Source of the DNA: a virus
Taxonomy: Duplodnaviria; Caudoviricetes
IMG/VR virus record: IMGVR_UViG_3300031954_000019
Coordinates: 1-41,982 of that record
Reading direction: 5' to 3' (one strand)
DNA: 41,982 nucleotides
Each line of letters starts with the position of its first letter. Position 1 is the stretch's first letter. This document shows, piece after piece, positions 507 through 41,080 of this stretch. A program made the position numbers and the translations under genes. The notes beneath the pieces are model-generated. The model made no database searches. It saw only the letters and a program-made list of their open reading frames with translations, and had not been told where the DNA came from.

Positions 507-599
507 TCATCTACTCTGTGTATTGTGGAGCGGATCAAGGGGTTACACAGACATGCGGACATGCTAGACTTGACACAAGCACACGGTCGGTACTGTATA

Positions 600-702
600 T
601 ATATACAACCGGGTACTATCAAGGACTTACGAGCGTTTTCAGCATTTCTCGGCGCAAAACGGATACTGCGTTTATATACAGCTGGGTACTATCAATAACT
701 TA
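600..702 (+). repeat. 30-bp direct repeat (600-629 and 673-702), each copy ending in an IHF consensus
   Basis: TATATACAACCGGGTACTATCAAGGACTTA vs TATATACAGCTGGGTACTATCAATAACTTA, 26/30 identical. Confidence 0.85.
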
Positions 703-711
703 GGAGCATTT

Positions 712-1266: not shown

Positions 1267-1324
1267 GTCGACATTCAGTAAATGTTGACTCGGCGTTGAC
1301 ACGGACTGCGGAGGAGCGTATATA
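1267..1324 (+). promoter_or_regulatory. Probable early promoter with upstream inverted repeat
   Basis: TTGACA at 1296-1301, 17-bp spacer, TATATA at 1319-1324; imperfect inverted repeat GTCGACATT-CAGTA-AATGTTGAC at 1267-1289. Confidence 0.5.
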
Positions 1325-1365: not shown

Positions 1366-1623
1366 ATGAACACTCCCGACTCTCTCAAGTGCAGCCGCTG
1401 CAACGGGCAGCTGGCCGCCGCATTCGCGAATGGCGAAATGACGCGCGGCGAGCTAGCGCACCAGCTGCAGCACACACTGTCGGATCGCGACGTACTGCTG
1501 GCCGCGCTGCTGCGCGTTGTCGGCGATACGGACGGCGAACCCGGTAATGACCTCGCGCTCCACGTATCGCAGACCACAGCTAACGCGGTCCGCGCCGCCA
1601 TCGCCAAGGTCACCGGAGACTAA
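1366..1623 (+). CDS. hypothetical early protein (CxxC near N-terminus)
   Basis: In ORF 1336..1623; ATG 1366 follows the GGAGACAC motif. Confidence 0.7.
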   Translation: MNTPDSLKCSRCNGQLAAAFANGEMTRGELAHQLQHTLSDRDVLLAALLRVVGDTDGEPGNDLALHVSQTTANAVRAAIAKVTGD

Positions 1624-1686
1624 GTGCACAGCACAGGGCCCGTTCGCGGGCCCTGACACGTGCATTTCGCACGATAGGAGACACTC
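1621..1686 (+). promoter_or_regulatory. Intergenic two-state hairpin cassette, copy 1
   Basis: AAGTGCAC/GTGCATTT outer stem, CAGGGCCCG-TTCG-CGGGCCCTG inner stem, alternative CGTGC-ATTTC-GCACG hairpin, then ATAGGAGACAC. Confidence 0.7.
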
Positions 1687-2697
1687 ATGACTGCTAACGT
1701 AACTAACTGCGTACACTCACAGCGCGATGGACTCGGCTGGCATGGTATCGGCGTAGCGATCCCGGCCGAGATTCGCAAAGAGCCTGCGAAGATCGCGGCA
1801 CTCTGCGGCGCGACGTGGACTGTCGTACAGCATCCGATCTACATCCGCCACAACGGCTGCTACCTGAAAATCGGCGACTATGCCGCGCAGGTTCGCTCGG
1901 ACAACATGCGCACGCTGTGCGTATCGTCGAGCAATCGTTACCACACTGACAATCGGCAGCCGGTCGACGTATTCGAAGCTTTCCGTGACGCGCTGGCAGC
2001 TGACCAGCTTGAGATCAGTCACGCGGCGATTCATCGCGGCGGTGATTTGATTTCAGTCTGCGCCACGCTGCCGGAAACGGCCGAGGTGGCCGGGGATGAG
2101 ATCCGCCGGTTCGTAACGCTGGCGACCGGGTACGACAAGGCTAACGGGACCAAAGCGCTGGATACGACCATTCGCGTTGTGTGTGATAACACGTACGCGG
2201 CGGCCATGGCTGAAGCTGGCGCGACCGGTCACTACAAGTCGGTGCGGGCCAGCACGAAGATCGTCGACAAGTCCACACTGGTCCACATGATCGAGTCGGC
2301 GCGTCAGGGCGGGCTGCGGACGATTGAGAAGTTCAACCAGCTCGCGAATCTGAAGCTGACGAACGAACAGGTCACGCGGATCTTCGCGGACGTGCTGGAA
2401 ATTGACGTCTCCAAGCTAGGCCAGAAGGATCGCCAAGGAAACAAACTGATCAGCACGCGCGCCGAGAACGCGCTGAAGGCTTTAGCGGACTCCTACCGCA
2501 GTGCACCGGGTGCAGTGCAGGGGAATGCTTGGGGCGCGTTCAACGCGGTGACTCACTACGCCACGCACGTCAAGACGTGCCGCGATACCTCCGGCGACGG
2601 TGCGGACGTCGCACGTCTCACCAGCAACCTCTTTGGCGACGCGCAGGCGATGAAGGCGCGCGCTATGGCGCTGCTGATGGAGAAGGTCGCAGCCTAA
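1687..2697 (+). CDS. DUF932 family phage/plasmid protein (TIGR03299-like)
   Basis: N-terminal WHGIG, TTIRVVCDNT and C-terminal GNAWGAFNAVTHY motifs typical of DUF932. Confidence 0.85.
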   Translation: MTANVTNCVHSQRDGLGWHGIGVAIPAEIRKEPAKIAALCGATWTVVQHPIYIRHNGCYLKIGDYAAQVRSDNMRTLCVSSSNRYHTDNRQPVDVFEAFRDALAADQLEISHAAIHRGGDLISVCATLPETAEVAGDEIRRFVTLATGYDKANGTKALDTTIRVVCDNTYAAAMAEAGATGHYKSVRASTKIVDKSTLVHMIESARQGGLRTIEKFNQLANLKLTNEQVTRIFADVLEIDVSKLGQKDRQGNKLISTRAENALKALADSYRSAPGAVQGNAWGAFNAVTHYATHVKTCRDTSGDGADVARLTSNLFGDAQAMKARAMALLMEKVAA

Positions 2698-2766
2698 GGT
2701 GCGAGCGGTTGGGGGTGCACGGACGCGCCCCTAGCTCGCGCGCATCTCGCGCGATAGGAGACACAC
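2695..2766 (+). promoter_or_regulatory. Intergenic two-state hairpin cassette, copy 2
   Basis: AGGTGCG/CGCATCT outer stem, GTTGGGGGTGC/GCGCCCCTAGC inner stem with three G-U pairs, alternative TCGCGCG-CATCT-CGCGCGA hairpin, then TAGGAGACAC. Confidence 0.7.
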
Positions 2767-2982
2767 ATGAGTATTCAATTCGGTATTGACGTGAATATCA
2801 GCACGCTGAAGTTTGACCCAGTAAATGGCCGGCGTACGTGCTACGCCACGCTCACACTCGGCCGCCGCAAGTTCTGGGTCATGCGTTGGGATTCTGAGCG
2901 CACGCGCGACTACAAACACCGCTTTGCGTTCTCTCGCGACGGTCTGATGTCATGGAGTTGGGGGGTGCACAATCATGCGTAA
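2767..2982 (+). CDS. hypothetical early protein
   Basis: 71-aa ORF behind GGAGACAC motif. Confidence 0.7.
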   Translation: MSIQFGIDVNISTLKFDPVNGRRTCYATLTLGRRKFWVMRWDSERTRDYKHRFAFSRDGLMSWSWGVHNHA

Positions 2983-3433
2983 ACCTAATCACGCACCGAT
3001 TGTGCCGCTGGCGAGCGCTGGCCGGTTCTTCGTTCTCATGCCTGATAGCGTTCAGGTCCATCTCATCGACAACTGTGCGCTATCGCATTACTGGGAAGGA
3101 CTGCGCATCGCGGAGGAGCGTGCACGGGATCCCGCACAGGCCGCCGCACAGGTCCGTGCGTCCGTGTTCAGGGTGCAGGGCTCGCTCGCCGCACTGCCGG
3201 CGCCCGACATGCGCGCGTTGGTCTGGTACATGGATAGCTACACGGGCCCGCAGCAGCTTGCGATACGCGCCACGGCGGCGGCGCTGCTGCTAGGACGGCC
3301 GATCGGTGGCGACGCGGGGGACAGTGGCGGGGGTACGAAGATCCCGGCGCCTAAGCCGTCTCCGCGCGCCCCGCGAGGTGACGGCGCGACCTTCGACGAG
3401 CTAGTGGCGCGCGTTGGGGGTGCGCAGGTCTGA
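2975..3433 (+). CDS. hypothetical early protein, Pro/Gly-rich C-terminus
   Basis: 152-aa ORF overlapping the previous stop; GGGGGTG upstream; stop sits at base of hairpin copy 3. Confidence 0.7.
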   Translation: MRKPNHAPIVPLASAGRFFVLMPDSVQVHLIDNCALSHYWEGLRIAEERARDPAQAAAQVRASVFRVQGSLAALPAPDMRALVWYMDSYTGPQQLAIRATAAALLLGRPIGGDAGDSGGGTKIPAPKPSPRAPRGDGATFDELVARVGGAQV

Positions 3434-3499
3434 GTGCACAGCGGACGGGGCCGCATGGCCCCGTACCAGTGTGCAATCGGCACACGATAGGAGACACAC
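3431..3499 (+). promoter_or_regulatory. Intergenic two-state hairpin cassette, copy 3
   Basis: TGCACA/TGTGCA outer stem, ACGGGGCC-GCAT-GGCCCCGT inner stem, alternative GTGTGC-AATCG-GCACAC hairpin, then GATAGGAGACAC. Confidence 0.7.
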
Positions 3500-3685
3500 A
3501 TGAGTAAATCATTTTGGAAACGTGTCGATACGGAACGGCTTGCGGAACGGGATAGCCTACGCGACGCACTGCGCGCGCTGGTAGAGCGCTGTGATGGACC
3601 TGAAGGTGTACGCGCCGACGGATCTAACATCGATACGCTGGCCGCGCACGTCGCGTTGGGAGACTTCGCGTCATGCGAAAACTAA
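3500..3685 (+). CDS. hypothetical early protein
   Basis: 61-aa ORF behind GGAGACAC motif. Confidence 0.7.
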   Translation: MSKSFWKRVDTERLAERDSLRDALRALVERCDGPEGVRADGSNIDTLAAHVALGDFASCEN

Positions 3686-3763
3686 TTGCGCGACTGTTAA
3701 AACGCTGGCGCCCGTTACGCGGGAGTCATGAGTCTCAATTTCTCAACTGGCGTAGGAGACACC

Positions 3764-3961
3764 ATGGCACACACTGACAGTCTGCTGTGCTGCGAAGCTT
3801 GCGAATTGAGTGCAGAGGAGTACGTACGCGCTGGTCACGACCGGCCGACTGCACGCAGGTACGCCGAGCTAGAGCACTACTCCATCCCCCACGGTGGGGA
3901 ATGGCCGAGTTACGAAGCGATGCAATCGTATGACCCATTTTATGGAGACACACATGAGTGA
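3764..3961 (+). CDS. hypothetical early protein (CCEAC motif)
   Basis: In ORF 3728..3961; ATG 3764 follows TAGGAGACAC. Confidence 0.65.
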   Translation: MAHTDSLLCCEACELSAEEYVRAGHDRPTARRYAELEHYSIPHGGEWPSYEAMQSYDPFYGDTHE

Positions 3962-4184
3962 CATCAATCCAAACTGTGACGGTGGACACTGCCGCGACCC
4001 AAAGGGAGAGGTCCGCGTGTACCCGTTAGGCAGCGGTGGGAATTTAATCCTGTGCCGCGCATGTTGGGAGCATGAGAACGAGTTCAACCGGTATCAGCAA
4101 AACAAGCATTTTGCTGCGCGTGAGCTATGGCCAACGCGCGACTGGGAGACTGCCAAGCATTACCCAGAGGAGACACAATCGTGA
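3954..4184 (+). CDS. hypothetical Cys-containing early protein
   Basis: In ORF 3894..4184; ATG 3954 follows GGAGACAC; CDGGHC and CRAC suggest Zn binding. Confidence 0.7.
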   Translation: MSDINPNCDGGHCRDPKGEVRVYPLGSGGNLILCRACWEHENEFNRYQQNKHFAARELWPTRDWETAKHYPEETQS

Positions 4185-4399
4185 ACTACTTAGGACTGAA
4201 ACCCCCAACGTATGCGAACCAGTTGAAATCCGCGCGGGAACTGCTCGCGCGAGATGGACCCAACGCACTGTGGAGTCCGCATGCGGCCACGGGCAGGATC
4301 TGCGGCTGCGGTGCATGCTTCTGCTGTGCGGCGCTGGAGGTCTGGAAGGAACACCGTGACCAGTTCCTTAGCCACGAGGAGCACACGCGTCGTGTTTAA
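4181..4399 (+). CDS. hypothetical Cys-rich early protein
   Basis: GTG 4181 (GTGA overlap) after AGGAGACAC; CGCGACFCC cluster. Confidence 0.65.
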   Translation: MNYLGLKPPTYANQLKSARELLARDGPNALWSPHAATGRICGCGACFCCAALEVWKEHRDQFLSHEEHTRRV

Positions 4400-4499
4400 C
4401 TGGTGGGCATCGTTGACATGGTCGCAAGCCAGCGCGCTAGCCATGGCGTTATTTGGTATTGCGTTGTTATTTCTCTCTGCTTGGGAGACGCGGAAGTGA
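4392..4499 (+). CDS. possible 35-aa single-pass membrane peptide
   Basis: GTG 4392 after GAGGAG; MFNWWASLTWSQASALAMALFGIALLFLSAWETRK; its TGA overlaps GTG 4496. Confidence 0.45.
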   Translation: MFNWWASLTWSQASALAMALFGIALLFLSAWETRK

Positions 4500-4981
4500 A
4501 CACATTTCAATACACTCTGACACTTGATGCATTCACAGCTGGCGGGGAGCAATTCCCCGCCGACTCCCTTACGTTTACCACCAATGGTCTAGGACAGACA
4601 CCGGACCTAGCGGGCCTGAGTCTCTACAGCCAGCCGCTAGGGTTTGCACAGAACGTCGGCAACGGGATGTATATGGAAATTTATTCGGCCGAGGCTAGCG
4701 TGCTCTACCCGCCGCCGCTCACTGCGCCGGAGTTTCTATCCGTAGAGAGCATTCTCTTGCCGACAGACTTCCCGGTTGGTGAGTCGGTAGAGACAACGCA
4801 CGGTAATAACTATTTTCTGCTTTTCCGGACTGGGCGCCTTGAATACTTCACGGCATACGATACTGGCACCGCTACGGTACACGCGACCGTGCCGGAGCCT
4901 GCGGTATTCGGCCTGCTAGTAGTAGCGCTAGCGCTGGGAGCGCTGGTCGCCCGGTTCAGGCGACATGCGATGCAGGAATAA
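4403..4981 (+). CDS. PEP-CTERM sorting-domain protein (start uncertain: 4403, 4418 or 4496)
   Basis: C-terminus VPEPAVFGLLVVALALGALVARFRR = VPEP, transmembrane helix, basic cluster. Confidence 0.8.
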   Translation: MGIVDMVASQRASHGVIWYCVVISLCLGDAEVNTFQYTLTLDAFTAGGEQFPADSLTFTTNGLGQTPDLAGLSLYSQPLGFAQNVGNGMYMEIYSAEASVLYPPPLTAPEFLSVESILLPTDFPVGESVETTHGNNYFLLFRTGRLEYFTAYDTGTATVHATVPEPAVFGLLVVALALGALVARFRRHAMQE

Positions 4982-5007: not shown

Positions 5008-5035
5008 GGCCCGCCTTTAGCGCGGGCCTTTTTTT
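5008..5035 (+). terminator. Rho-independent terminator closing the early operon
   Basis: GGCCCGC-CTTTAGC-GCGGGCC followed by T7. Confidence 0.85.
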
Positions 5036-6944
5036 ATTCTGTCTTGTTTGGATTCCGCCAGCCCTTGCTGCGTATGTCGTAGAGCCAGCCAAGTTTGCGC
5101 ATGGAGTTATGAATCCGTTCCTGAGTGTGCCGGTCCCACGCGCGCGTGTCTTCCAACTGCACGCCATCGCGGAGTAGCTCTTTCATCGTGACCTCTTTGG
5201 CGGCGGTCCTGATGAGATACGAACTAATCAAGTCCTCATAGACGTCGTGATCCTGAGACTGGCTCTGACGCGCGCGAGCTTCATCCATGGGGACGTTCCA
5301 CCATTCCTCTCGCGCGCGATACCGGTGCAGGGCCTCGGCAAACAGCTGTGCGCGGTTCTCGCGTATCCATTGCAAATCAATCTTGCCGCAGACGATCGGC
5401 CACCAGCGCGTGCCGCCGGCATCGTCGGTATTCCACCTCGGCCGATCTATCGTGCCGGCGAACACACACTGCCGCTTGTGACTGGCAGCGCTGCGTTCAT
5501 AAGACGCGCGATAGAGATCCTCGCGGCGCGTGACGATCGACTTCACGATTTCAATTGCGCGTCCCTTGATATTCGCCATTTCACCGAGTTCTAGACACCA
5601 TTTCCCGCGCATGTTCTGCAGGAAGTCCTTTTCGCCAAACATCGCGGACGGGTTATCGAACCAGTGCAGGCCAAATAGCTCGCGCAGCGCGCTGGTCTTA
5701 CCGGAGCGTCCGACGCCTTCGAATACCGGCACATAATCAACTTGGCAACCGGGATCCATGACGCGCGCCACGGCGGCCACGAGAAAGCAGCGCCCGACGG
5801 CAGACGTATAGGGCGAAGCTTCCGTTCCCCAGCCACGGTGAAGCATGACCACGAGTCGGGGCGTACCGTCCCACTCAAGGGTGTTCAGCCAATCACGCAC
5901 CTCATGGCGCGTATCGCTGGAAGCCGCTACCTGTACGGCTTCGTATACCGTGGCAGAGCGGACGCTCGAAAACCCCAGCGACCCCTGCAGAAGTGAACAC
6001 AGCTTGGAGCTATCCAAATCACGCCATTCCCGCCCGACGTCGCTGGAAGCTCCTTCCATGGTCATAACCTTGTCGTGGAAAGCGTCGTACCAGACTTTGC
6101 CGTGATCGCCCTTCCATGCCTCGATGGTCTTTTGAATGTTGTACAGATTGGAATAGGGGGTGCCATTCGGTGCATAGGTGAGATTCGGGATCCGCTGCCA
6201 TGCCGCACGGAAGGACAGGATTTGCGGGGTGGGCTGCGCTTGCGTCGGCGGCTGTACTGGCGGCTGGGCTACTGCTGCAGCTGACCCGCTCTTTCCGCGC
6301 GCCGGCCGGATCGGTACGACTTGGGCGGCGATATCCCGCCGGTTCTCGCGTACGAATGCCTCGATTTGCTCCCACGTCCAGCCGGCTTCGACGATATGCA
6401 GGAATGACCAGTTCGCCGGCTTATCTTGGGGTAATTGAATTAGCGACACCTTGGCCCCACCGTCGCGTAGCTCCCGGCCGAGCGTATGGTGGGCCTGTAC
6501 CGAGTCGGCGTGATTGGACGGCCAGAGGACCACGGTGCGCTCGTACAGGGCGCCCCATGACCCCATGTCGAATTTGCTGGGCCCGCCGGGGGTCGTCGTC
6601 GCTATAACTTCAGCGTCACCGGATGCCTTATGGAACGCATCGACCATGTCCTCTCTATCGAAGACAAATACAGTCCATGTCGGGTGAGCGTCGAAGTTGT
6701 GGGGGAGGTAGAGCGGCCGGGGATGGTCAGGCAGCGAAGCTTGAATATACCTGCCAGTGGCGGCATCCCAGACCCACGTCAGGTAGTGCCGGTGCTCGTC
6801 CGAGCCGATCGTCGCGTCGGCTTTGACCAAATATGCGCATACAACGGGCCCGTCTGCATAAATCGCGGTATGTATGGGGTGGCCCCATTCGGGCAGTGCC
6901 CCATGGAAACGGGCGCCGGGAGGCGGCAGTGCGACCCCGAGCAT
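5034..6944 (-). CDS. VapE (virulence-associated E)-like P-loop helicase with N-terminal degenerate TOPRIM domain
   Basis: HEVRDWLNTLEWDGTPRL, AVARVMDPGCQVD, Walker A GVGRSGKT, LELGEM, YRASYER, RQCVFAGT, GTRWWP, RAQLFAEA. Confidence 0.85.
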   Translation of the reverse strand: MLGVALPPPGARFHGALPEWGHPIHTAIYADGPVVCAYLVKADATIGSDEHRHYLTWVWDAATGRYIQASLPDHPRPLYLPHNFDAHPTWTVFVFDREDMVDAFHKASGDAEVIATTTPGGPSKFDMGSWGALYERTVVLWPSNHADSVQAHHTLGRELRDGGAKVSLIQLPQDKPANWSFLHIVEAGWTWEQIEAFVRENRRDIAAQVVPIRPARGKSGSAAAVAQPPVQPPTQAQPTPQILSFRAAWQRIPNLTYAPNGTPYSNLYNIQKTIEAWKGDHGKVWYDAFHDKVMTMEGASSDVGREWRDLDSSKLCSLLQGSLGFSSVRSATVYEAVQVAASSDTRHEVRDWLNTLEWDGTPRLVVMLHRGWGTEASPYTSAVGRCFLVAAVARVMDPGCQVDYVPVFEGVGRSGKTSALRELFGLHWFDNPSAMFGEKDFLQNMRGKWCLELGEMANIKGRAIEIVKSIVTRREDLYRASYERSAASHKRQCVFAGTIDRPRWNTDDAGGTRWWPIVCGKIDLQWIRENRAQLFAEALHRYRAREEWWNVPMDEARARQSQSQDHDVYEDLISSYLIRTAAKEVTMKELLRDGVQLEDTRAWDRHTQERIHNSMRKLGWLYDIRSKGWRNPNKTE

Positions 6945-9789: not shown

Positions 9790-9848
9790 TCCCTATTGAC
9801 AGAGTTGATTCTAGCGCGCATGCTCGCCCGCGTGCAAATAGGAGACAC
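9790..9848. promoter_or_regulatory. Overlapping divergent sigma70-like promoters
   Basis: Plus: TTGACA(9796-9801)-17-CATGCT; minus: TTGCAC-18-TAGAAT; lies between divergent operons. Confidence 0.55.
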
Positions 9849-9852
9849 GCAC

Positions 9853-10464
9853 ATGGCTAACAATGCCGTCTTAACTGTCGAACAGGCTAAAGCAATCACT
9901 GGCGGTCGTGAGCCGCTGACCCCGGTCGAGTTCACCGAAGCCTGCAAACTGCTGGCTGAGTGCCGGGGAATAGACGAAGCCAAATACTGGGCTGATAAGG
10001 CTTCTGCGCTCGCCGCATGGGCCAAAATTTACCACTCCACTCGGATAGCGCGCGAGGCGCGCTTGCTCAAGCTGCATGCTTACCGGCGCATGGCGGAACT
10101 GGCTAAGGAAATCAAAAAGTCCAATGGCACCGCGCCGGCCAAAGTGCTGACTGATCAGGGACTGAAGAAATGGGAAGCGAACGAAGTCATGGCTGTCGGC
10201 CGCGTATCCAAAGAAAAATTTGAGGCTGCCGTCGCTGCAGCCGTACCGCCGGCCCCCTCCTACTTCAAGCGTTCCGCCGTCGCGTTCAACGGCAGCGTCG
10301 GCAACGCCATGCGCGCGTTGCATTACTTCACGATACGGATCGATGCGACCGAAATGGCGCAGCAGGTTCCGCCTAAAGAGGTGAAGTATTACCAGCGCAT
10401 GGTCGAATCGCTCAGCGACTGGCTCGATGAATTTGACCAGCACCTGAAGGGCGCCAAAGAATGA
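9853..10464 (+). CDS. hypothetical protein
   Basis: In ORF 9796..10464; ATG 9853 after TAGGAGACAC; helical IDEAKYWADKASALAAWAK segment. Confidence 0.75.
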   Translation: MANNAVLTVEQAKAITGGREPLTPVEFTEACKLLAECRGIDEAKYWADKASALAAWAKIYHSTRIAREARLLKLHAYRRMAELAKEIKKSNGTAPAKVLTDQGLKKWEANEVMAVGRVSKEKFEAAVAAAVPPAPSYFKRSAVAFNGSVGNAMRALHYFTIRIDATEMAQQVPPKEVKYYQRMVESLSDWLDEFDQHLKGAKE

Positions 10465-40858: not shown

Positions 40859-41072
40859 ACCGTCTCCGGCGCGTCACCCACACCAGTCCACCGATCCCCA
40901 ACGCCAGCAGACCGAGCGTCCCCGGCTCCGGCACTCCCTTCGTGCACGGATCATCGGCATCGCAGTCGCCCACTCCGTGCTCGTGCGCCGGCCACTTGTC
41001 GTGGCGCTCGTACACGCTCGCTCCTACCGGCAGCGCCAGCAGGCCCATCAGTAACCACGTGCCCTTGCTCAT
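40857..41072 (-). CDS. 71-aa mini PEP-CTERM protein with signal peptide
   Basis: AGGAG RBS; MSKGTWLLMGLLALPVGA signal-like N-terminus; C-terminus VPEPGTLGLLALGIGGLVWVTRRRR. Confidence 0.88.
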   Translation of the reverse strand: MSKGTWLLMGLLALPVGASVYERHDKWPAHEHGVGDCDADDPCTKGVPEPGTLGLLALGIGGLVWVTRRRR

Positions 41073-41080
41073 GTCGACTC

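What the first reader, a model, noticed from the sequence alone, without database searches (positions are those of the whole stretch)
1621..3499. Repeated stop codon - long hairpin - alternative hairpin - RBS cassette (candidate new cis-regulatory RNA)
Seen three times (1621-1686, 2695-2766, 3431-3499) with different sequence but the same design. The upstream stop codon sits at the base of a long interrupted hairpin, whose 3' arm can instead pair across an exactly 5-nt loop with the next segment (CGTGC/GCACG, TCGCGCG/CGCGCGA, GTGTGC/GCACAC), ending at CGATAGGAGACAC-N2-ATG. Several G-U pairs and covariation between copies favour selection on RNA structure. None has a U-tract. Known: T7 early mRNA is cut by RNase III at interrupted intergenic hairpins. 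Inference: processing sites whose cut product refolds into a protective 5' hairpin, or ribosome-triggered switches coupling adjacent genes.
Basis: partly seen in the sequence, partly recalled or inferred. Interest (0 to 1): 0.8.

Follow-up and report, generated by a model that had tools for sequence, protein, structure and literature searches.

The report
Cut-and-cap hairpins between phage genes
Three spacers between neighbouring genes of an uncultured soil phage carry a conserved RNA design, predicted to fold two ways, that likely marks where the host enzyme RNase III cuts the long message, after which the freed end would fold into a small protective hairpin; this is a variant of a trick known from phage T7, and no cutting has been shown.

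Summary
In detail: three stop-to-start spacers (1621-1686, 2695-2766, 3431-3499) in a 42-kb uncultured soil phage fold into ~20-bp interrupted hairpins whose 3' arm can re-pair into a small hairpin beside the RBS. The design recurs in other phages: 40 of 83 long stop-proximal hairpins carry the small hairpin, against 8.7 expected (copies related). Both helices covary. No Rfam family fits.

New evidence points to RNase III. An A-U pair sits 5 nt before the small hairpin in otherwise G+C stems (14 of 22 clusters, 5.4 expected), the enzyme's proximal-box rule. The loop-side rows of an E. coli in-vivo matrix recover the T7 R1.1 cut and place the cut within 1 nt of the small hairpin's first base in 17 of 22. 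Gap-free two-sided scoring failed on the T7 controls. Neither fold changes predicted RBS access much, so simple translational coupling is unlikely. T7 R1.1 itself is predicted two-state.

Verdict: a variant of T7-type processing signals with a built-in 5' cap hairpin, cutting untested. The scan has reported this design before on other DNA (31 findings matched a word search).

The parts
1621..1686 (+). Cassette 1: stop 1621-1623; long hairpin 1622-1667 (lower stem 1622-1629/1660-1667, 4x4 internal loop, 9-bp upper stem 1634-1642/1647-1655, 4-nt loop); small hairpin 1659-1673; SD AGGAG 1676-1680
1635..1658 (+). Predicted RNase III proximal box of cassette 1 (A1635-U1654 with G1636-C1653); predicted 3'-strand cut between 1658 and 1659
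   Evidence: loop-side matrix score -2.84, equal to T7 R1; inferred, not shown
2695..2766 (+). Cassette 2: stop 2695-2697; nearly fully paired long hairpin (21 pairs, several G-U); small hairpin 2736-2754; SD 2756-2760. Weakest RNase III match (G-U at the key position)
3431..3499 (+). Cassette 3: stop 3431-3433; long hairpin with bulge and 2x2 loop; A3445-U3464 pair 5 nt before the small hairpin 3469-3485; SD 3489-3493
1366..1623 (+). 85-aa orphan ORF whose stop opens cassette 1
   Evidence: no PHROG or Pfam hit
1687..2697 (+). DUF932 (TIGR03299-like) gene, between cassettes 1 and 2
   Evidence: (PF06067, E 7e-25)
2767..2982 (+). 71-aa orphan ORF after cassette 2; absent between the same neighbours in relative L002
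2975..3433 (+). 152-aa ORF of unknown function, overlapping the previous gene (no cassette at that junction); homologues follow DUF932 in L002, L007-L011 and, more distantly, L018
3500..3685 (+). 61-aa orphan ORF after cassette 3
1296..1324 (+). Candidate sigma-70-type promoter of the operon (TTGACA, 17 nt, TATATA)
   Evidence: seen by eye; NOT called by the scanner; inference
5008..5035 (+). Intrinsic-terminator-like hairpin with U tract closing the rightward small-gene operon

Best explanation
The three spacers are repeated RNA elements with two alternative, covarying helices, and they likely act as RNase III processing signals: the host enzyme would cut the 3' arm of the long hairpin at about the first base of the small hairpin, which would then fold at the new 5' end and likely shield it from decay. 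Step by step: (1) Shown: position between genes from stop to RBS, recurrence in other phages, and covariation of both helices. (2) Predicted: the long hairpin is the default fold. (3) Inferred from published E. coli rules: the G-C/A-U proximal box fixes the cut at or within 1 nt of the small hairpin's first base. (4) Predicted: once cut, the small hairpin forms (probability about 0.96). (5) Inferred from known RNase E behaviour: a base-paired 5'-phosphate end resists RNase E, and the upper stem left on the upstream piece blocks 3' exonucleases. The long message is thus split into separately protected pieces. The operon is read as early or host-takeover from its anatomy only.
For: (a) Fixed geometry: the small hairpin starts 11-13 nt after the apical loop in 18 of 22 clusters; 11 bp is the minimal E. 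coli RNase III helix (PMC1540722). (b) Proximal box: A-U/U-A 5 nt before the small hairpin in 14 of 22 clusters against 5.4 expected from stem composition; G-C plus A-U together in 10 of 22 against 1.7. This holds at coarser clustering: 10 of 18 against 4.2, and 8 of 15 against 3.4. That position is the one where G-C/C-G blocks binding (PMC1540722; row D of Table S4 in PMC6212723). The search patterns used to find relatives did not include it, except that the pattern overlapped the adjacent bases and added no new member. (c) The loop-side rows of the in-vivo matrix put the T7 R1.1 cut after nt 5887, as published (PMC8708148), and put the best cut within 1 nt of the small hairpin in 17 of 22 clusters (chance 1/3; column-shuffle Fisher p 0.002). 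Copy 1 scores the same as T7 R1. (d) Both helices covary on sequence-only alignments: long helix 13 of 17 pairs with two-sided changes; small helix 2 of 5 pairs, 98.6% of cells paired, with one column covarying in both helices. (e) 40 of 83 long hairpins have the small hairpin against 8.7 expected. (f) The small hairpin forms after the predicted cut (median 0.97). (g) Orthologous junctions in L008 and L002 keep the long hairpin and box with a weak or no small hairpin, i.e. plain T7-like sites. (h) RNase E cuts base-paired 5'-P ends more slowly (PMC3997798 section 6).
Against: No cut has been observed. The two-sided gap-free matrix test gave no signal (p 0.39) and also misplaced 4 of 5 T7 controls. 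The loop-side version was chosen after that failure. With fold-guided columns the two-sided score was significant by shuffle but its best register was often 4 nt off. Copy 2 has G-U at the key pair and scores poorly. Copy 1 has C-G/G-C where the in-vitro optimal distal box is U-G/U-A (columns). 17 of 22 clusters come from one phage group, so shared ancestry inflates the statistics, and three clusters (L188, L201, L370) may be false hits. A-U pairs next to an internal loop could instead serve to make the lower stem easy to melt. One population contig carries a pair-breaking change in copy 2 (2728 C>A, 1 of its 20 differences; fold -38.0 to -31.1). The host and its RNase III rules are unknown; S. 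meliloti RNase III differs from E. coli's on R1.1 (PMC6121014).
Confidence: 0.6

Rival explanations
1. Translation-gated processing. It is the same RNase III site, but a ribosome terminating at the stop melts the lower stem and the small hairpin traps the freed arm, leaving only an 8-11-bp stem. Cutting would then happen only when the upstream gene is not being translated.
For: The first pair lies within 0-5 nt of the stop in all 22 clusters (partly by the search definition), and masking the stop plus 9 nt flips the fold (median 0.02 to 0.93; 0.96, 0.87 and 0.84 in the window). Copy 1's two folds differ by about 1.4 kcal/mol.
Against: Any removal of the 5' arm gives the same flip, so this does not separate it from cut-and-cap. 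T7 R0.5 and R1 also start at a stop codon, while R1.1, the two-state one, does not. Compact genomes explain the stop position.
Confidence: 0.15
2. Translational-coupling switch without cutting: termination flips the fold and changes initiation at the next gene.
For: In the window the small hairpin ends 1-3 nt before the SD, inside a ribosome footprint; the fold flips when the stop is masked.
Against: Neither fold pairs the SD. Predicted SD access hardly changes. The gap to the SD is 9-25 nt in 10 of 22 clusters. It does not explain the fixed 11-13-nt ruler or the proximal-box pair.
Confidence: 0.08
3. Uncut barrier hairpins (3'-exonuclease roadblocks or pause and insulator structures); the small hairpin caps ends made by some other nuclease.
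For: Simple stop-hairpin-RBS spacers without the long stem are common at the same junction in relatives; 43 of 83 long hairpins lack the small one.
Against: A barrier needs no two-turn length, no positioned A-U pair and no internal loop at a fixed distance.
Confidence: 0.09
4. DNA-level cassette (PeSL-like recombination joint, or a protein operator at the GTGC-N5-GCAC palindrome).
For: The last 32 nt are shared. The genome encodes RecE/RecT. The 71-aa gene after copy 2 is missing in L002, and flanking genes differ among relatives.
Against: The sense strand folds more stably than the antisense in 17 of 22 clusters, and G-U pairs recur. No promoter or U tract lies in the cassettes. Palindrome spacing varies from 3 to 6 nt. 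Gene swapping at these joints may be a side effect.
Confidence: 0.05
5. A new self-cleaving ribozyme.
For: Earlier scan notes report hammerhead or twister RNAs in equivalent slots of other phages (unchecked).
Against: No ribozyme family at gathering score in the window or in 40 relative loci. Loops and linkers vary freely. The element is two simple, mutually exclusive hairpins.
Confidence: 0.03

Closest known systems
RNase III processing signals of the phage T7 early mRNA (R0.3, R0.5, R1, R1.1, R1.3)
   Same: Intergenic irregular hairpins of about two turns in a phage operon. Copy 1 has the 9-bp upper stem, tetraloop, internal loop and proximal box of R1. Stops lie at the base of R0.5 and R1. 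R1.1 is predicted to refold into a 7-bp 5' hairpin after its cut, its two folds being -22.0 and -21.9 kcal/mol.
   Different: Far more G+C-rich. No sequence-level match (model R1 has no hit in the T7 early region at E<=2). The small hairpin is a conserved, covarying part here but predicted in only 1 of 5 T7 sites. The optimal distal box is absent. Cutting is shown for T7, not here.
5'-terminal stem-loop mRNA stabilisers (ompA, papA type; RNase E 5'-end dependence)
   Same: The predicted product begins with a base-paired 5' end, the feature that slows RNase E (PMC3997798).
   Different: Those known from that review sit at primary transcript ends; here the hairpin is hidden in a larger stem and would be released by a cut.
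PeSL cassettes of T4-type phages (PMC2839356, abstract read)
   Same: Repeated intergenic stem-loop modules among small non-essential genes that differ between relatives.
   Different: PeSLs hold a strong promoter and act as terminators; these hold neither by scan, and no deletion joints were seen.
Rfam Mu-gpT-DE (RF03012)
   Same: Weak hits on copies 1 and 2 (23.7 and 16.5 bits); also a phage intergenic element ending in an RBS.
   Different: Far below the 49-bit cut-off; the match is the SD-to-AUG tail with the structured middle skipped; no capsid gene upstream.

Membership tests
T7-type RNase III processing signal | Lies between genes of one polycistronic phage operon | tested here: met
   Stop-to-start spacers among co-oriented ORFs 1366-4981 ending in a terminator; the transcript itself is inferred
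T7-type RNase III processing signal | Irregular hairpin of about 20 bp with about 11 helical positions between cut and loop | tested here: met
   17-21 pairs; 11-12 nt from loop to predicted cut; covariation in relatives
T7-type RNase III processing signal | Proximal box: A-U/U-A at position 2, G-C at position 1 | tested here: met
   Copy 1 fully; copy 3 A-U with C-G at position 1; copy 2 only G-U; family 14 of 22 against 5.4 expected
T7-type RNase III processing signal | Distal box U-A/U-G | tested here: inconclusive
   Copy 1 has G-C/C-G there; the 9-row loop-side score is still in the T7 range for copies 1 and 3 (-7.8, -7.95 against -7.3 to -8.4) but not for copy 2 (-10.1)
T7-type RNase III processing signal | Site-specific cleavage by RNase III | not testable with these tools
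   Needs an enzyme assay or 5'-end mapping
Rfam RF03012 Mu-gpT-DE | Score at or above gathering (49 bits) with the model structure | tested here: not met
   23.7 bits at best, structure skipped
PeSL cassette | Embedded sigma-70 promoter | tested here: not met
   None in the three cassettes
PeSL cassette | Stem-loop acts as terminator (U tract) | tested here: not met
   Longest T run 3; not called as terminators
PeSL cassette | Recombination between copies (deletions, mini-circles) | tested here: inconclusive
   No joints in 8 runs laid, contigs only
Anti-SD translational coupling switch | SD or start codon sequestered in one of the two folds | tested here: not met
   Predicted SD access nearly equal in both states
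Known self-cleaving ribozyme classes in Rfam | Match to a ribozyme covariance model | tested here: not met

The most novel reading that the evidence does not exclude
A widespread class of translation-sensing RNase III sites: the terminating ribosome flips the element into the uncuttable two-small-hairpin form, so a phage message is cut only where the upstream gene has stopped being translated, and the same small hairpin then caps the downstream piece. One compact RNA would tie processing and stability of each gene to translation of its neighbour, and T7 R1.1 may hide the capping half of the trick.
Probability: 0.15. Interest if true: 0.75.

Novelty: new variant of a known kind. Interest (0 to 1): 0.45.

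Why it matters
RNase III cutting leaves a 5'-monophosphate, which normally speeds RNase E decay, yet T7-type cuts protect phage mRNA. A hairpin hidden in the cut stem and released exactly at the new end would explain how the downstream piece is protected. Here covariation supports both helices and the enzyme's own recognition register lines up with the small hairpin, which gives a base-precise prediction. The same second fold is predicted in T7 R1.1, so the idea can be tested in E. coli with standard reagents. A 60-nt cut-and-cap part could also be useful for insulating genes in synthetic operons. It extends a 50-year-old mechanism rather than opening a new one, and the scan has met the design repeatedly.

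Tried and rejected
Searches for relatives:
- Single-protein DUF932 scan of viral contigs: 9 stretches matched, none related.
- 17-nt tail pattern: 1 hit, inside an unrelated coding region, chance.
- Pattern: 6 of 47 loci real (4 distinct sequences); the other 41 were dropped as chance or lacking the long hairpin.
- GTDB scan: 22 distant DUF932 loci, none among the 40 hits.
- Five close relatives by terminase (52-78% identity): DUF932 in 0 of 5, model R1 one weak hit at E 0.84. The module is therefore patchy within the phage's own clade; two of those records are incomplete.
- Model R1, built without window sequences but seeded through a window-derived pattern, ranks copies 1 and 2 first of 14 window hits (E 0.004, 0.006) and misses copy 3. 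This is only modest support for common descent; pairwise identity to outside members is at most 0.58.

Tests of mechanism:
- Two-sided gap-free RNase III matrix: uninformative, failed T7 controls.
- Sequencing runs: no RNA holder listed among 24. Contigs of 8 runs showed no joints and no compensatory variants.
- Ribozymes in equivalent slots: none in 40 loci.
- An early idea that GAUA after the small hairpin is a conserved motif was dropped; it varies.

Literature (10 searches, open-access library only):
- No paper describing this element.
- Older subscription papers on T7, T3 and SP82 processing are not in the library, so prior mention of the R1.1 5' hairpin is not excluded.

Full report
Context. 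The window is a single 41,982-nt virus record, a tailed phage by PHROG hits to capsid, portal, terminase, helicases and RecE/RecT. It is held by soil metagenome runs (24 of 24 listed). The finding lies in a rightward run of small ORFs from 1366 to 4981, closed by a terminator-like hairpin at 5008. Only DUF932 (1687-2697) and a sub-threshold PEP-CTERM motif are recognisable. Calling the operon early is an inference from this anatomy. The host is unknown.

Observation. All three cassettes exist as described. They occupy three of the operon's junctions. The junctions at 2975, 3685-3764, 3954, 4181 and 4403 have none. No Rfam family reaches its cut-off. The only weak hits on the cassettes, to Mu-gpT-DE, come from the SD-to-AUG tail.

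The design is a family. A pattern for the small hairpin plus SD returned 47 viral loci, 6 of which (4 distinct sequences) carry the whole design next to unrelated genes. Their marker gene (phrog_2554) brought 80 more loci. A sequence-agnostic descriptor was run over the window and loci L002-L109 (without L006), L157-L236 and L362-L439. It examined 1,900 distinct stop-to-SD segments: 83 hold a long single hairpin, and 40 of these hold the alternative hairpin, against 8.7 when the linker is shuffled. The 40 come from 34 sources and fall into 22 clusters at 80% identity: 3 window, 1 from DUF932 locus L018, 17 from the phrog_2554 group, 1 other. They are not independent, and three may be false hits; all were kept in the counts. 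L018's copy follows a homologue of the 152-aa gene, the same junction as copy 3. On a MAFFT alignment of 14 of the non-window members, chosen because they aligned in register, the long helix has two-sided changes in 13 of 17 pairs. The small helix pairs in 98.6% of cells, with two-sided changes in 2 of 5 pairs. One column swaps C/G together with both of its partners. On 33 sequences including the window, the small helix again beats shuffled and slid controls. These controls ignore phylogeny. Other DUF932 relatives keep only the long hairpin (L008, L009, L024) or a short hairpin. Five close relatives by terminase lack DUF932 and gave no convincing model hit.

Why RNase III. The small hairpin begins 11-13 nt after the apical loop in 18 of 22 clusters. 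From PMC1540722 (passages, results part 1, figure legends part 1): the minimal substrate is 34 nt, needs an 11-bp helix, and its proximal-box position 2 is pair 9:30. The 3'-strand cut therefore lies 4 nt beyond that base (my derivation). G-C or C-G there blocks binding, and one box set suffices. In the family, stems are G+C pairs except at 5 and 4 nt before the small hairpin. A-U/U-A occupies the -5 position in 14 of 22 clusters (5.4 expected), and G-C plus A-U in 10 of 22 (1.7 expected). This persists at 70% and 62% clustering.

Matrix test. I then used the in-vivo pair-count matrix of PMC6212723 (passages, section 27, Table S4). Scored two-sided and gap-free, it failed on both T7 and the family. 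Restricted afterwards to loop-side rows, it put the T7 cuts before nt 891, 1468, 3139, 5888 and 6449. R1.1 at 5887 is confirmed by PMC8708148 (passages). The others agree with my recalled values (890, 3138, 6448; R0.5 one off), which no call verified. The same rows put the family's best cut within 1 nt of the small hairpin in 17 of 22 clusters. Copy 1 shares the proximal box and score of T7 R1. Copy 3 fits within 1 nt. Copy 2 fits poorly and, being almost fully paired, might be cut on both strands or not at all. The conserved G 3 nt into the small hairpin (33 of 40) is where the symmetric lower box expects G-C. This may explain the conserved GC core without invoking a protein operator (inference).

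After the cut. Folding predicts the long hairpin by default (median pairing 0.93) and the small hairpin after a cut (0.97) or when the stop region is masked (0.93), with little change in SD access. Copy 3 is the exception in context, with both folds populated (0.59/0.32). RNase E cuts accessible 5'-phosphate ends more than tenfold faster than base-paired ones (PMC3997798, section 6), so a hairpin flush with the new end would be protective. The upstream piece keeps an 8-11-bp stem near its 3' end. T7 R1.1 is predicted to do the same: its lower arm can re-pair into a 7-bp hairpin one base from the cut, the two folds being 0.1 kcal/mol apart. The other four T7 sites are not. The stops of T7 genes 0.4 and 0.7 lie at the base of R0.5 and R1, so the stop position needs no special explanation.

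Rivals. Translation-gated cutting cannot be separated from cut-and-cap by computation and is the most novel open reading. SD-level coupling, uncut barriers, DNA cassettes and a new ribozyme are less likely, for the reasons in Rival explanations. PeSL was compared from the abstract of PMC2839356 only; PMC11780869 and PMC6121014 were seen as passages.

Novelty. It works like a T7 processing signal and meets the sequence-testable features except the optimal distal box; cleavage is untested. The element is in no Rfam family, and my searches of the open library found no description; older subscription literature was not searchable. The scan has reported the same design in other genomes (31 findings matched the words, 8 shown), though no look-alike by sequence. 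Verdict: new variant of a known kind, interest 0.45.

Noticed in passing
L237 (phage T7, record 5846-5912): T7 R1.1 is predicted to have the same two-state design: its downstream product starts with a 7-bp hairpin that overlaps the phi1.1B promoter's upstream bases.
   Followed up: partly
window 9796-9856: Divergent control region: TTGACA-17-CATGCT overlapped by a 6-bp palindrome with a 6-nt spacer, then the same AGGAGACAC RBS. It looks like the small hairpin alone but overlaps the putative -10, so it may be an operator.
   Followed up: no
window 591-711: Two 48-nt direct repeats (81% identical, 73 nt apart), each ending in a TTAxGAGC-type tail, upstream of ORF 712; possibly tandem promoters or operators.
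   Followed up: no
window 4403-4981 and 40860-41080: The phage carries a PEP-CTERM-like protein at the end of the small-gene operon (Pfam just under cut-off; Atlas neighbours mostly Acidobacteriota where the phylum is known, a weak host lead). A second similar motif appears on the minus strand near 40900-40940 (seen by eye).
   Followed up: partly
L016:1654-1710, L047:237-300: After DUF932, some relatives have a shorter variant in which the released pyrimidine arm can pair with the SD itself, a true anti-SD switch.
   Followed up: no
L160, L163, L167-L169, L172 (after the phrog_2554 gene): Close relatives swap the two-state element for a short stop-hairpin-GATAACC-RBS spacer, together with a different downstream gene.
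   Followed up: partly
L216:4203-4300: A tandem, self-complementary repeat array directly follows the phrog_2554 stop codon.
   Followed up: no
window 1687-2697: Population contigs show clustered variants in DUF932, almost all spaced at codon third positions, suggesting mosaic alleles under purifying selection; the cassettes show one variant in all.
   Followed up: no
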